Positions 32,665-36,516 of a stretch of DNA of 64,000 bases are shown here, piece by piece. Position 1 is the first letter of the stretch, and every line of letters starts with the position of its first letter. Below the pieces are notes generated by a model. That model was not told the DNA's origin and did no database searches. It worked only from the letters and a program-made list of their open reading frames with translations. Source of the stretch: a virus; the IMG/VR virus record IMGVR_UViG_3300046332_000238, positions 32,001 to 96,000 of that record; one strand, given 5' to 3'. Both the position numbers and the translations under genes were made by a program.

Positions 32665-33324
32665 ATGTTTAATTATTGCCCACCTAAAGACTTGCAAGAC
32701 CTGAAGTCACAAACCTTCCCTGATGGTAAAAGATATTATACATTGGAAGATGGCACTAAGTTGCCATCTGTTACCACTGTGCTTGGTGCCAAAAAGAAAG
32801 AGGGTATTCTTGCATGGCGTAAACGTGTGGGTGAAGAAGAAGCCAATCGTATCTCCAGACAGGCCACATCACGCGGTACGAACGTTCATACAATTTGTGA
32901 ACACTATCTCAATAACAAACCAGGTTTCTCTAAGGGCATCATGCCTGACGCTGTGGAGATGTTTAAGAGTATTCGACCAACACTAGATAAGATTAACAAC
33001 ATTCATTACCAAGAAGTTGCATTGTGGTCTAAGCAATTAGGTCTTGCTGGTCGTGTAGACTGTATTGGTGAATATGATGGTGTGTTATCTTCTATCGACT
33101 TCAAGACCTCCAAGAAAATTAAGAAACGTGAAGATATTCTGGATTACTTTTGGCAGACTACAGCATATGCGTTGATGTATGAGGAACTGGTTGGTGTTCC
33201 CATTCATCAGTTGGTTGTTATCATGGCAGTGGAGAACGAACAACCATTGGTATTCATTGAGAAAACTTCAGATCACATCCAAGGTTTGGTTGATGCAATT
33301 GCATATTACCGGAAGAATGCTTGA
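32665..33324 (+). CDS. PD-(D/E)XK exonuclease (Cas4-like phage exonuclease)
   Basis: PSVTTVL, RGT.VH, AGRVD, IDFKTS and Q..AY motifs. Confidence 0.9.
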   Translation: MFNYCPPKDLQDLKSQTFPDGKRYYTLEDGTKLPSVTTVLGAKKKEGILAWRKRVGEEEANRISRQATSRGTNVHTICEHYLNNKPGFSKGIMPDAVEMFKSIRPTLDKINNIHYQEVALWSKQLGLAGRVDCIGEYDGVLSSIDFKTSKKIKKREDILDYFWQTTAYALMYEELVGVPIHQLVVIMAVENEQPLVFIEKTSDHIQGLVDAIAYYRKNA

Positions 33325-33349
33325 CAAAGTAAAATAAATAGAGTATAAT
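33321..33349 (+). promoter_or_regulatory. consensus sigma70 promoter for the tmRNA
   Basis: TTGACA-17-TATAAT. Confidence 0.85.
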
Positions 33350-33355
33350 GTAAGT

Positions 33356-33697
33356 TAGTAAAATGGTAGTACAACTTAGTAATTGAAAGGGTGGCGACAC
33401 GCCGGGGCGGTACCGGCCCGGTCCACCATAAGGAATTTATGAACTTGAAATGGTATCAAATATTATTATGCTTAGCTGTTCCAATAAACTATTTTTATTG
33501 GTTGGTGTTACATAGATTTTTTATGATGGGCCGGAAATAGTTTCGACCGACATTTAAGTATATTATTAAGCTACTCGACACAGAGAGTCGTAAAAAGTAA
33601 AAACTAGTAAATGCAAACGATAACTCGTTCCGCCAAGTAGCCTAAAAACTACTAGCTGAGGTTTCGCAAGGTGTCCTTATAATCAAATCACCTTGCA
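33356..33697 (+). ncRNA. ssrA: circularly permuted two-piece tmRNA (acceptor piece about 33356-33428; coding piece 33528 to about 33697)
   Basis: T-arm GCCGG-GGCGGTA-CCGGC then CCGGTCC-A-CCA; 5' strand GGGCCGG at 33528 gives G3:U70; tag ANDNSFRQVA* at 33613-33645. Confidence 0.93.
33439..33540 (+). CDS. 33-aa hydrophobic peptide in the tmRNA intervening segment
   Basis: AAGGA RBS; MNLKWYQILLCLAVPINYFYWLVLHRFFMMGRK. Confidence 0.5.
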   Translation: MNLKWYQILLCLAVPINYFYWLVLHRFFMMGRK

Positions 33698-33787
33698 AGA
33701 ATCATGATTTTCTGCATTGACTTTTAAAGTTATTTTGATATATAATATGAGTTATGTCATTTCGACATAACAACACAGGAGAATTAT

Positions 33788-33862
33788 ATGAATTGGACTA
33801 CACCAGCAGCAATTGATCTACGTTTTGGTTTCGAAATTACACTTTATATCGCAAATCGTTGA
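33788..33862 (+). CDS. pqqA: PQQ precursor peptide PqqA (24 aa, not in the ORF track)
   Basis: MNWTTPAAIDLRFGFEITLYIANR with ExxxY core; AGGAG RBS; TTGACT-18-TATAAT upstream. Confidence 0.95.
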   Translation: MNWTTPAAIDLRFGFEITLYIANR

Positions 33863-33934
33863 TACATAAATAATATTATGAGTTAGAGTTCTCACTAAAA
33901 ACTCAATCACACACATACACAGTTAGGATTTAAA

Positions 33935-34991: not shown

Positions 34992-35023
34992 TAACAAATT
35001 TAAACTATAATGTGAAAATCATA

Positions 35024-35245
35024 ATGCCTACAAAGAATGAGATTAGTGAATTTAGTGATACGATTGAAGAAATAACCAGTCAATTAAAGTGTACTCGATT
35101 GGATGCAATACTTCATCATTGTGAACAGACAGGTATGGAACTTGATGTGGCATCAACGTTGATTTCTTCTTCATTGAAATGTAAGATCGAAGAAGAATCA
35201 CAAGAACTGAACCTGTTGAAGAAGAAATCTAGACTGATGTTTTAA
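35024..35245 (+). CDS. 33: late transcription co-activator gp33
   Basis: FS..IE......LDAILH.C....E......I...LK.KI..E...LNLL; synteny with genes 59 and 32. Confidence 0.85.
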   Translation: MPTKNEISEFSDTIEEITSQLKCTRLDAILHHCEQTGMELDVASTLISSSLKCKIEEESQELNLLKKKSRLMF

Positions 35246-35837
35246 AATCTGAATTTTGTTTTAGTTGTTTGCTTATCCAAGATGCACTTTTATTGTAATA
35301 AGAAGCAGCTTCACCACATGAATTGAATGTACCATCAGGAGTTATTATTTTTTTATGCAAATAATTAGAATCTCGACTTCTGGCAGATTTTGACATGACT
35401 TTACGGCTTTCATCTGTGTGTTTTCGGCCATACATTGGATGGTTGGTTTTATCACAATAACGTTTTTTTGCTTGAGATGAAATATTATTGTTGTGTTCTG
35501 TGGAGTAACAATTTGTTTTACCTTTATTCCATGGTGCGAATCCAATGCGTCCTTCACCACCAGTGGTTGAATTGTATCCAGATTTAAAAGAATTATATTC
35601 AGTTATAAAATGAGATTCCATAACATTTAATGTATAATCGAGGTCTTTTGATTGATATAAAAGGTACCATTCGAAATTTTCCCAACCATGTTTACAAATT
35701 GCACGATAAAATTTAAAATTATATTTTTTATATTTGGCTTTGTGTGAATTTTTTCTTGCTGGCCATTTAGAATCAAAACCAATATATACTTTGTTATTGA
35801 TTTTATTGACACATTTGTAAATTGAATAAATAGACAT
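35229..35837 (-). CDS. free-standing GIY-YIG (Seg-like) endonuclease with NUMOD3
   Basis: SIYK...KVYIG, FYRAI.K.G, GYN.T.GGEG and HPMYGRKHTDE motifs. Confidence 0.9.
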   Translation of the reverse strand: MSIYSIYKCVNKINNKVYIGFDSKWPARKNSHKAKYKKYNFKFYRAICKHGWENFEWYLLYQSKDLDYTLNVMESHFITEYNSFKSGYNSTTGGEGRIGFAPWNKGKTNCYSTEHNNNISSQAKKRYCDKTNHPMYGRKHTDESRKVMSKSARSRDSNYLHKKIITPDGTFNSCGEAASYYNKSASWISKQLKQNSDFKTSV

Positions 35838-35903
35838 GCTGGCATTCTCCTAAAATGTTAGAGTATGTGCGGATTGCAGTCCGGCGACATACAATTATTT
35901 AGG
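35838..35903. promoter_or_regulatory. structured GIY-YIG leader element, copy 3
   Basis: Same two hairpins with compensatory changes; minus-strand CCTAAATA late-like promoter. Confidence 0.75.
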
Positions 35904-35910
35904 CACATAT

Positions 35911-36516
35911 ATGACAGAAACCACTGGGTTTGAAGCTTTTTGTTTATTCCACAGTTTAAAATTGCACTTTACTGGTGATTATGATTATGTGAAATACCAT
36001 GGTAAGACTAATGTTTCTAAAGACACCTTTGCAAACAGGAAAGACAAGTACACTTTCTACAAATTGTCACGCAAATATAATCTAGAGAATTTAAAAGACT
36101 TCTATATTGCAAACTTTTTGGAGAAAGATGTAAGTTGGATCGGTGATATCTCCAGTGTTGAAGGTGAAGAAAACCTCAAGAAGTGGCAGAAGCGTAGTCA
36201 GAGTCTATCATATAGATTCGAACAGGACGTTCTTGGTGTATTAAACAATATCAATTCACCTAATGAGATGTTGGTTGTGAATGATGGACAACATCCACTT
36301 CTATTGAATGAGGTAATGCAAGGAACTATTGCCATAGAAACACTGGTGATAATGAATGATATTATGAACTTCTTTCCTATGTGGAATAAGAAAATCAATG
36401 ATACGATTATCTGGCCTGCATTTAAGAAGAAGTGTGAAAAGTACCTGCCGTTCTTACACTATGATAAGAACAAATTTAAAGGTATATTAAAAGAATGTCT
36501 GGCAGAGTACGCCTAA
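35911..36516 (+). CDS. 59: helicase loader gp59
   Basis: LKLHFT.DYDY.KY.GK, F..RKD.Y.F.KLS and I.IETL motifs; synteny. Confidence 0.9.
   Translation: MTETTGFEAFCLFHSLKLHFTGDYDYVKYHGKTNVSKDTFANRKDKYTFYKLSRKYNLENLKDFYIANFLEKDVSWIGDISSVEGEENLKKWQKRSQSLSYRFEQDVLGVLNNINSPNEMLVVNDGQHPLLLNEVMQGTIAIETLVIMNDIMNFFPMWNKKINDTIIWPAFKKKCEKYLPFLHYDKNKFKGILKECLAEYA

What the first reader, a model, noticed from the sequence alone, without database searches (positions are those of the whole stretch)
33356..33697. Phage-encoded circularly permuted two-piece tmRNA
Seen: the CCA-bearing acceptor half comes before the 5' half. The acceptor stem GGGCCGG/CCGGTCC has G3:U70 and discriminator A, and the T-loop is GGCGGTA. 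An inter-piece helix is possible (CTTAGTAAT with ATTATTAAG; GGTAG with CTACT). The resume context TAAAT-GCA opens tag ANDNSFRQVA*, followed by a 3' stem GCAAGGTG/CACCTTGC, and there is a perfect sigma70 promoter. Established: permuted tmRNAs occur in alphaproteobacteria (with a similar non-canonical T-loop), some cyanobacteria and some betaproteobacteria. No smpB is in the window. Inference: the phage supplies its own ribosome-rescue RNA.
Basis: partly seen in the sequence, partly recalled or inferred. Interest (0 to 1): 0.8.

Follow-up and report, generated by a model that had tools for sequence, protein, structure and literature searches.

The report
Phage two-piece tmRNA, swapped elbow
An uncultured T4-like phage carries a real two-piece gene for the ribosome-rescue RNA (tmRNA), a known kind of phage gene sitting where marine relatives also carry one; what stands out is that its tRNA-like half has been replaced as a cassette compared with its closest relative.

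Summary
Window 33365-33698 (+) is a circularly permuted two-piece tmRNA gene: Rfam tmRNA_permuted scores 99.1 bits against a cut-off of 47. It has a 7-bp acceptor stem with G3:U70, discriminator A, encoded CCA, T-loop GGCGGTA, tag ANDNSFRQVA* and a perfect TTGACA-17-TATAAT promoter.

The kind is known. Phage Melnitz and pelagiphage HTVC008M carry permuted tmRNAs, Melnitz's at the syntenic spot (PD-(D/E)XK nuclease, tmRNA, gp33, gp59). This scan has also noted phage permuted tmRNAs many times on other DNA.

About 58 of 80 related viral contigs have the gene. Helices covary, and T-loop position 2 covaries with the D-loop (TTC with GG, xGC with AG). Most relatives score as Rfam beta_tmRNA and the marine isolates as alpha_tmRNA. 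This copy has a beta-like body with an alpha-like elbow.

Against its closest relative (L022), the flanks and the mRNA-like domain are 95-98% identical, but the tRNA-like domain, helix 2 and spacer are only 49.5% identical, so that block was exchanged. In other pairs only the two patches that pair with each other differ.

No SmpB is encoded, so the phage must use the host's. The QVA tag ending is rare (two contigs). The host and expression remain untested.

The parts
33321..33349 (+). Sigma-70 consensus promoter (TTGACA-17-TATAAT) driving the tmRNA precursor; start expected near 33356
   Evidence: 12/12 match, the best site in the region. It is 94.8% identical in L022. A promoter scoring at least 11/12 lies at the same distance in 17 of 53 related copies, this window among them.
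33365..33428 (+). Acceptor piece: 5' strands of helix 2, T-arm, 3' strand of the acceptor stem, discriminator A and encoded CCA
   Evidence: Rfam alignment positions 1-65; motif coordinates.
33401..33417 (+). T-arm: stem GCCGG/CCGGC with the non-canonical T-loop GGCGGTA
   Evidence: The stem is 100% paired across 42 sequences, and 4 of 5 pairs show compensatory change. The loop type covaries with the D-loop.
33429..33527 (+). Intervening spacer, expected to be removed during maturation; closed by a stem; holds a 33-codon ORF of uncertain meaning (33439-33540)
   Evidence: 99 nt lie between CCA and G1. The fold is closed by a 13-bp stem, z -1.56. The ORF was translated and no relatives were found.
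33528..33546 (+). Start of the coding piece: 5' strand of the acceptor stem (GGGCCGG, G3 at 33530) and the D-loop analogue AAATAGTTTCGA
   Evidence: The acceptor stem is 100% paired and G3:U70 is present in 42/42 sequences. AG in the D-loop goes with G at T-loop position 2.
33547..33575 (+). 3' strands of helix 2, which hold the two pieces together
   Evidence: 20 positions are complementary to 33365-33397. The proximal helix is 97% paired, with 6/6 pairs compensatory.
33576..33590 (+). Small hairpin CGAC/GTCG after helix 2; first element of the mRNA-like domain shared with L022
   Evidence: Modelled in RF04321 and RF01850. 77% paired, with 3 of 4 pairs compensatory.
33613..33645 (+). Tag reading frame: resume codon GCA, peptide ANDNSFRQVA, stop TAA
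   Evidence: ARAGORN at -ps90. The resume context TAAAYGCAAAYGA is conserved in all 42 homologues.
33636..33653 (+). Hairpin AGTAG/CTACT with the stop codon in its loop
   Evidence: 5 bp in the window. Only partly supported across the alignment, at 50-71% paired.
33666..33696 (+). Conserved 3' hairpin of the coding piece (GCAAGGTG/CACCTTGC, 15-nt loop); no T-run follows, so it is not a classic terminator
   Evidence: 89% paired, with 7 of 8 pairs compensatory. It aligns to the penultimate hairpin of RF01850. No terminator-like site was reported here.

Best explanation
This is a working gene for a two-piece tmRNA carried by an uncultured T4-like myovirus.

Proposed mechanism:
1. Host RNA polymerase transcribes it early, from a perfect sigma-70 promoter, as one precursor.
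2. Host tRNA-processing enzymes cut 5' of G33528 (RNase P) and trim to the encoded CCA at 33428. The 99-nt spacer is discarded.
3. The two pieces stay together through the 7-bp acceptor stem and about 20 bp of helix 2.
4. Host AlaRS charges the RNA with alanine, using G3:U70 and discriminator A.
5. Host SmpB (the phage encodes none) and EF-Tu deliver it to ribosomes stalled on broken mRNAs, which should be plentiful once the phage degrades host transcripts.
6. Translation resumes at GCA 33613 and adds ANDNSFRQVA. The ribosome is then released at TAA.

What is shown: the gene's anatomy, its conservation, base-pair and loop-loop covariation, synteny with the Melnitz ssrA, and the absence of smpB. 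What is inferred: transcription, processing, charging, rescue and the fate of tagged proteins.

The locus evolves by module exchange. Relative to its closest relative, the whole tRNA-like domain, helix 2 and spacer were replaced by a version with an alpha-like elbow (G54 G55 in the T-loop paired with A in the D-loop), while the mRNA-like domain was kept.
For: - Model scores: RF04321 99.1 bits against GA 47; alpha_tmRNA 58.8 against 50.
- All identity elements are present.
- Covariation on 42 distinct homologues: T-arm and acceptor stem 100% paired, G3:U70 in 42/42, proximal helix 2 at 97% with 6/6 pairs compensatory, 3' hairpin with 7/8 pairs compensatory. 0 of 500 shuffles reach the observed covariation score.
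- Tertiary covariation: T-loop TTC goes with D-loop GG in 24 sequences, and xGC with AG in 16.
- The gene is kept at this locus in about 58 of 80 related contigs.
- Melnitz carries its ssrA in the same gene order, and HTVC008M also has a permuted tmRNA. The upstream nuclease is 46% identical to that of Melnitz and a gp33 homologue lies downstream.
- Perfect promoter.
- No SmpB in this record or in 5 relatives at 92-100% completeness.
- Cassette exchange: identity to L022 is 94.7% in the exonuclease gene, 94.8% in the promoter, 49.5% in the TLD, helix 2 and spacer, 97.6% in the MLD, and 97.3% in orf94.
- The D-/T-loop interaction is needed for SmpB binding and function, and SmpB binds the elbow (PMC3968760).
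Against: - There is no expression, processing or aminoacylation evidence; no RNA run was listed.
- ARAGORN misses the gene at default settings, and beta_tmRNA scores below its cut-off.
- The tag ends in QVA instead of the LAA or MAA seen in the other tags read from related loci. This allele occurs in only one other contig, so it could be a recent and mildly defective variant.
- No intrinsic terminator follows the gene.
- The distal helix 2 pairs could not be tested because the alignment is out of register there.
- The host, and hence the compatibility of its SmpB and AlaRS, is unknown.
Confidence: 0.75

Rival explanations
1. Rescue without efficient proteolysis. The RNA frees ribosomes as a normal tmRNA does, but its tag (…RQVA) lacks the Leu-Ala-Ala end that ClpXP reads in studied systems. 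Tagged products would then be degraded poorly, sparing the protease or phage proteins.
For: The tag ends in QVA, while the other tags read from related loci end in LAA or MAA. The rest of the gene is intact and covaries. A stop-codon hairpin (AGTAG/CTACT) still forms around the changed codons. From my own knowledge: ClpX recognition of the ssrA tag depends on the C-terminal LAA.
Against: The allele is found in only two contigs among the viral and metagenome collections. That looks like a recent variant rather than a maintained adaptation. Protease specificity in the unknown host is untested.
Confidence: 0.12
2. Decoy. The RNA, or only its tRNA-like piece, titrates host SmpB and blocks host trans-translation instead of performing it. 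This has been proposed for the TLD-only gene of mycobacteriophage DS6A.
For: The phage encodes no SmpB. A TLD-only molecule strongly inhibits tmRNA, perhaps by titrating SmpB (PMC4131195). The elbow, where SmpB binds (PMC3968760), is the part that is exchanged.
Against: A full mRNA-like domain with a conserved resume context, an open tag frame and a stop codon is kept in all 42 homologues. The tag and 3' hairpin covary. None of that is needed for a decoy.
Confidence: 0.07
3. Decaying or non-functional copy: a tmRNA gene on its way to loss.
For: ARAGORN is negative at default. beta_tmRNA is below threshold, at 73.3 against 84. The tag end is deviant. About a quarter of related loci with enough flank have no tmRNA at all.
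Against: Every helix of the tRNA-like domain is intact, with one A-C mismatch in 49 pairs. G3:U70, A73 and CCA are present. The T-loop and D-loop match each other in the covarying combination. The promoter is perfect. The low beta score is explained by the swapped elbow: L022 has the same MLD and scores 110.
Confidence: 0.05

Closest known systems
ssrA of Methylophilales (OM43) phage Melnitz and of pelagimyophage HTVC008M (Buchholz et al. 2022, PMC9004378)
   Same: These are permuted two-piece tmRNAs in T4-like aquatic myophages. In Melnitz the gene order is the same: PD-(D/E)XK nuclease (46% identical), tmRNA, gp33, gp59. HTVC008M's neighbours were not examined. Both have an xGC-type T-loop with AG in the D-loop (Melnitz GGCAGTA, HTVC008M TGCAATA). 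Melnitz's gene lies downstream of an early promoter.
   Different: Melnitz and HTVC008M score as alpha_tmRNA (106.7 and 83.8 bits). Their tags are ANDNYVPVDYALAA (14 aa, Melnitz) and ANFNEYALAA (10 aa, HTVC008M). Melnitz has a glutamine riboswitch at its 3' end. This copy has a beta-like mRNA domain (beta 73.3 against alpha 58.8 bits), a 10-aa tag ending in QVA, no riboswitch, and pqqA downstream. BLASTN finds no similarity to any isolate phage. Structural proteins are only about 38% identical.
Betaproteobacterial two-piece tmRNA (Rfam RF01850; Sharkady and Williams 2004)
   Same: 17 of 20 sampled homologues in related phages pass RF01850's cut-off. Shared features are the 10-residue ANDE.FALAA-type tags, the hairpin after helix 2, the post-tag region and the penultimate 3' hairpin.
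   Different: This copy is below the cut-off, at 73.3 against 84. Its T-loop is GGCGGTA instead of UUCGAUU, and its D-loop has AUAG instead of CUGG. The final terminator hairpin of the model is missing. It is carried by a virus.
Alphaproteobacterial two-piece tmRNA (Rfam RF01849; Caulobacter ssrA, Keiler et al. 2000)
   Same: The T-loop is identical (GGCGGUA) and the D-loop has the same AAAUAG. It has the same permuted order and the same processing logic. It passes RF01849's cut-off (58.8 against 50).
   Different: The D-loop continues UUUCGAC as in beta forms, not GAUCGAC. The tag is 10 aa rather than the 12-14 aa of the four alpha-scoring copies read here. The score is far below a true alpha member (305.7 bits for a Rhodobacteraceae gene).
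One-piece tmRNAs of mycobacteriophages (Bxz1 group) and the TLD-only gene of DS6A (PMC4131195)
   Same: These are phage-borne tmRNA genes that must rely on host SmpB.
   Different: They are in the standard, unpermuted gene order (or have no tag frame at all, in DS6A), and they belong to an unrelated phage lineage.

Membership tests
tmRNA, circularly permuted two-piece form (Rfam RF04321) | Covariance-model score above the curated cut-off | tested here: met
   99.1 bits against 47, full-length match 1-213.
tmRNA, circularly permuted two-piece form (Rfam RF04321) | tRNA-Ala identity: 7-bp acceptor stem with G3:U70, discriminator A, 3' CCA | tested here: met
   33418-24 pairs with 33528-34; G33530:T33422; ACCA at 33425-28. 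G3:U70 is present in 42/42 homologues.
tmRNA, circularly permuted two-piece form (Rfam RF04321) | CCA-bearing half encoded upstream of the 5' half, with a helix 2 joining the two pieces | tested here: met
   The order is acceptor piece 33365-33428, spacer, then coding piece from 33528. 20 positions are complementary. The proximal helix has 6/6 compensatory pairs. The distal part could not be tested by covariation.
tmRNA, circularly permuted two-piece form (Rfam RF04321) | T-arm plus reduced D-loop that interact to form the elbow | tested here: met
   5-bp stem and 7-nt loop. T-loop position 2 and the D-loop purine covary: 24 TTC/GG and 16 xGC/AG, with 2 alignment-shifted or odd cases.
tmRNA, circularly permuted two-piece form (Rfam RF04321) | Internal tag frame opening with an Ala resume codon and ending in a stop, with a hydrophobic Ala-Ala C-terminus | tested here: inconclusive
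   The frame GCA…TAA is present in a conserved context, but the peptide ends in Q-V-A, not (L/M)-A-A.
tmRNA, circularly permuted two-piece form (Rfam RF04321) | Processing into two RNAs, alanylation, SmpB-dependent trans-translation | not testable with these tools
   No RNA run was listed. No smpB is present in the phage.
beta_tmRNA (Rfam RF01850) | Score above the cut-off of 84 bits | tested here: not met
   73.3 bits. 17 of 20 related phage copies do pass, at 85-158 bits.
alpha_tmRNA (Rfam RF01849) | Score above the cut-off of 50 bits | tested here: met
   58.8 bits. This is marginal and lower than its beta score. A true alpha gene scores 305.7.

The most novel reading that the evidence does not exclude
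In this family of aquatic T4-like phages, the tRNA-like elbow of the tmRNA is an exchangeable cassette kept polymorphic by selection. Canonical elbows (U54 U55 with G in the D-loop) and alpha-like elbows (G54 G55 with A) replace each other between close relatives. The exchange would occur by short-patch recombination at the invariant motifs (GGAC, CCACCA, TGATGGG, GTTTCGA). Sometimes only the two discontiguous patches that pair with each other change. The selective reason would be that the elbow type must match the host's SmpB or T-loop modification enzymes, or must escape a host factor that attacks the RNA. If so, the 'alpha' or 'beta' look of a phage ssrA says little about past hosts.
Probability: 0.2. 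Interest if true: 0.6.

Novelty: new member of a known kind. Interest (0 to 1): 0.35.

Why it matters

Two things may be useful.

1. The syntenic locus holds alpha-type genes in the marine isolates, beta-type genes in most relatives fetched here, and a mixed form in this window. Modules are visibly reshuffled. The alpha-like T-loop changes state 7 times on the tree of the neighbouring gene. This weakens the use of ssrA type as a marker of past host jumps, as was argued for Melnitz.

2. The clean T-loop/D-loop covariation across interchangeable natural cassettes gives a ready-made set of variants for testing what SmpB and the ribosome require of the tmRNA elbow.

Tried and rejected
- ARAGORN at default found nothing in the window. 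It needed -ps90.
- BLASTN of the gene against 50,697 phage records gave no match.
- Exact T-arm and acceptor patterns in viral contigs found no second copy of this TLD.
- The glutamine riboswitch reported for Melnitz is absent here, even at E up to 5, though it was recovered in Melnitz.
- Host search failed in several ways. The D-loop pattern in genome-contig hit 78 genomes of many phyla, so it is not diagnostic. A 151-genome sample of one class gave only one permuted tmRNA, in a single-genome order. The host stays unresolved.
- The tag strings were not found in any paper, nor in the held supplements of the tmRNA database paper.
- No RNA holder was listed among sequencing runs.
- A pseudoknot between GAGG 33658-61 and the 3' hairpin loop is no better than shuffles or slid controls.
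- The spacer ORF (33 aa) has no relatives by a degenerate pattern search and was too short for the search for related loci.
- orf94 is not a gp33 homologue; gp33 is at 35012-35245.
- The cofold MFE of the two pieces did not reproduce the comparative structure.
- Keiler 2000 and Sharkady 2004 are not held in the library.

Full report
**What is in the sequence**

The window is bases 32001-96000 of a 104.7-kb IMG/VR virus record judged 63% complete. Its genes are those of a T4-like myovirus: rIIA, baseplate wedge gp6, tail proteins, gp59 and gp32, and gp33. The nearest isolates are distant. gp6 is about 38% identical to those of OM43 phage Melnitz and pelagiphage HTVC008M, and gp32 is about 56% identical to cyanomyophage proteins.

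Between a PD-(D/E)XK exonuclease gene (32665-33324) and a small pqqA gene lies the stretch in question.
- a perfect TTGACA-17-TATAAT promoter (33321-33349);
- an acceptor piece (33365-33428) with T-stem GCCGG/CCGGC, T-loop GGCGGTA, acceptor strand CCGGTCC and ACCA;
- a 99-nt spacer;
- a coding piece starting GGGCCGG (33528), which pairs fully with the upstream strand, including G3:U70;
- helix 2 pairings of 5, 9 and 6 positions;
- the resume context TAAAT-GCA and the tag frame ANDNSFRQVA* (33613-33645);
- a 3' hairpin (33666-33696).

**Is it more than chance?**

Rfam's merged model for permuted tmRNA (RF04321) scores 99.1 bits against a cut-off of 47, over its full length (E 4.5e-18 for the window). 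alpha_tmRNA also passes, at 58.8 against 50. With laxer filters beta_tmRNA scores higher, at 73.3, but stays under its cut-off of 84. ARAGORN reports nothing at default and finds the gene, with the same tag, only at a lowered threshold.

**Relatives**

The upstream exonuclease has relatives in 327 viral contigs, and 80 were fetched. ARAGORN finds a permuted tmRNA next to it in 45 of them. A structural pattern search finds 51, and Rfam finds four more among the loci that both had missed. About 58 of 80 therefore carry the gene. Roughly sixteen loci with enough flank lack it, and the rest are cut by contig ends.

Of 20 copies given to Rfam, 17 pass beta_tmRNA (85-158 bits). The rest reach only tmRNA_permuted, two of them also the alpha model's low cut-off. 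Tags are mostly 10 residues of the betaproteobacterial style (ANDEKFALAA, ANDERFALAA, ANDESYALAA, ANDSQFALAA, ANESVYRLAA, ANDNSYRLAA).

An alignment of 42 distinct copies supports the structure:
- the T-arm and acceptor stem are paired in 100% of cells;
- G3:U70 is present in 42/42;
- the proximal part of helix 2 is 97% paired, with compensatory change at all six pairs;
- the 3' hairpin has compensatory change at seven of eight pairs;
- no shuffle out of 500 reaches the observed covariation score, and slid controls fall to 37-46% paired.

The distal helix 2 pairs could not be judged because MAFFT puts them out of register.

**A tertiary covariation**

The T-loop comes in three forms in this phage group: TTCGAnT, TGCRAAT and GGCRGYA. 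The D-loop has GG before UUUCGA whenever the T-loop starts TTC (24 sequences), and AG whenever its second base is G (16 sequences). The two apparent exceptions are an alignment shift and one odd copy. This is the position of the G18-psi55 contact of tRNAs.

The D-/T-loop interaction is needed for SmpB binding and function, and SmpB binds this elbow (review PMC3968760). The window's combination, GGCGGTA with AAAUAG, is the one found in alphaproteobacteria (Rfam consensus; a Rhodobacteraceae gene). The window's gene is therefore a coherent variant and not a damaged one.

**Known relatives at the same locus**

Buchholz et al. (PMC9004378) described a two-piece ssrA in Melnitz. They counted 53 two-piece tmRNAs among isolate phages, mostly aquatic, and found the gene in 17 of 47 related contigs.

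Melnitz and HTVC008M both have RF04321 matches. In Melnitz the annotated order is PDDEXK nuclease, two small ORFs, SsrA, gp33, gp59. The window has the same nuclease (46% identity, E 4e-57), then the tmRNA, then pqqA, orf94 and a cell-wall hydrolase, then gp33 (40% identity), then a minus-strand ORF with a NUMOD3 motif, then gp59 and gp32. The gene is therefore the positional counterpart of the Melnitz ssrA.

The marine copies score as alpha_tmRNA (106.7 and 83.8 bits). They have xGC T-loops with AG D-loops, and Melnitz has its reported glutamine riboswitch. The window has no riboswitch. The same locus thus holds alpha-type genes in the marine isolates, beta-type genes in most relatives fetched here, and in this window a beta-like body with an alpha-like elbow.

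**Module exchange**

The closest relative is L022. Nucleotide identity to the window, segment by segment, is:

| Segment | Identity to L022 |
|---|---|
| Exonuclease gene | 94.7% |
| Promoter | 94.8% |
| TLD, helix 2 and spacer (33358-33575) | 49.5% |
| mRNA-like domain (33576-33698) | 97.6% |
| orf94 | 97.3% |

The pqqA cassette (33699-33926) is absent from L022. L022 has T-loop TTCGATT with a GG D-loop and its own complementary helix 2 strands. The replaced block is exactly the structural domain, running from the transcript start to the end of helix 2.

Other pairs show finer mosaics:
- L036 against L041 differ only in the T-arm with the acceptor 3' strand (54% identity) and in the acceptor 5' strand with the D-loop (70%). 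The spacer between them is 97% identical, helix 2, tag and 3' hairpin 100%, and the pre-tag hairpin region 95%.
- L088 against L036 share the whole TLD but differ in tag and 3' hairpin.
- L070 against L037 share only the spacer.

On a tree of the exonuclease gene (53 rows), the GGC-type T-loop changes state 7 times. Label shuffles give a mean of 10.1 and a minimum of 7. The variant T-arms resemble each other (xxCGG-GGCRGYA-CCGxx). This points to spread of a module within the phage pool rather than repeated invention.

I infer that recombination occurs at the short invariant motifs flanking each module, and that selection keeps only matching T-loop/D-loop and acceptor-strand combinations. Breakpoints were not tested statistically.

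**How it most likely works**

Shown: the anatomy, conservation, covariation and synteny, and that no SmpB gene exists in this record or in five relatives that are 92-100% complete, two of them with terminal repeats.

Inferred: early transcription by host polymerase; RNase P cleavage before G33528 and trimming to the encoded CCA; alanylation through G3:U70; delivery by host SmpB and EF-Tu to ribosomes stalled on truncated messages during infection; tagging with ANDNSFRQVA; and release at TAA.

No terminator follows. The same transcript may therefore run on into pqqA, which also has its own TTGACT-18-TATAAT promoter.

**The odd tag**

The other tags read from related loci end in LAA or MAA. This one ends in QVA. 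A degenerate search for the tag frame found only L022's contig in the viral and metagenome collections. It is a rare allele, so I give only modest weight to the idea that it is an adaptation that avoids proteolysis.

**Verdict**

The observation and the reading are right. The kind is already published, and this scan has noted it many times on other DNA, so I file it as a new member of a known kind. The exchangeable elbow and the alpha/beta mixture at one syntenic locus are the parts I did not find described in the papers I could search. They deserve a proper recombination analysis and a biochemical test. The host is unknown. The beta-type tags and the recurrent pqqA hint at a PQQ-using betaproteobacterium such as Methylophilaceae, but that is a guess.

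Noticed in passing
window 33717-33862 (ORF 33788-33862); also L025, L032, L033, L035, L037, L044, L046, L049, L086, L094, L095: There is a 24-residue PqqA peptide gene (Pfam PF08042, 35.1 bits against 21.1) with its own TTGACT-18-TATAAT promoter. It sits right after the tmRNA, with no other pqq gene nearby. The same small gene lies downstream of the tmRNA in 11 other related loci, with a conserved peptide, but the closest relative L022 lacks the cassette.
   Followed up: partly
window 33439-33540: The tmRNA spacer holds a 33-codon ORF (MNLKWYQILLCLAVPINYFYWLVLHRFFMMGRK) preceded by AAGGA. It ends inside the D-loop. Its start is buried in the stem that closes the spacer, and no relative was found, so coding cannot be decided. 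Spacers in 51 related loci are only 55-108 nt and hold no nuclease gene.
   Followed up: partly
L024, L036, L041, L088, L089, L092, L093 (spacers); L037, L033, L070: The same spacer sequence (83-97% identical in the two pairs measured) is shared by tmRNA genes that differ in T-loop type, helix 2 and tag. The 'discarded' spacer therefore behaves as a mobile module of its own.
   Followed up: partly
window 35229-35837 (-): A 202-aa ORF with a NUMOD3 motif (homing-endonuclease type) lies between gp33 and gp59. BLASTN aligns no part of L022 to window 35246-35915, while the flanks align at 94-96%. Nearby homing nucleases could drive the gene conversion seen at the tmRNA locus.
   Followed up: no
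L052 8143-8179: There is an Rfam abiF RNA match (44.3 bits against a cut-off of 37) in a related phage contig that lacks the tmRNA.
   Followed up: no
L182 (genome handle G114): This was the only permuted tmRNA found in a 151-genome sample of one bacterial class. It lies in a genome that is alone in its order, scores as alpha_tmRNA (95.7 bits), and has T-loop GGCAGGT and tag ANFDYPSKQAA.
   Followed up: no
L024-type loci (e.g. L024, L027-L029, L041-L043): About two thirds of the related tmRNA genes have no good sigma-70 promoter within 130 nt upstream (best 8/12). The window's subgroup has a perfect one at a fixed distance. Expression timing may differ between alleles.
   Followed up: no
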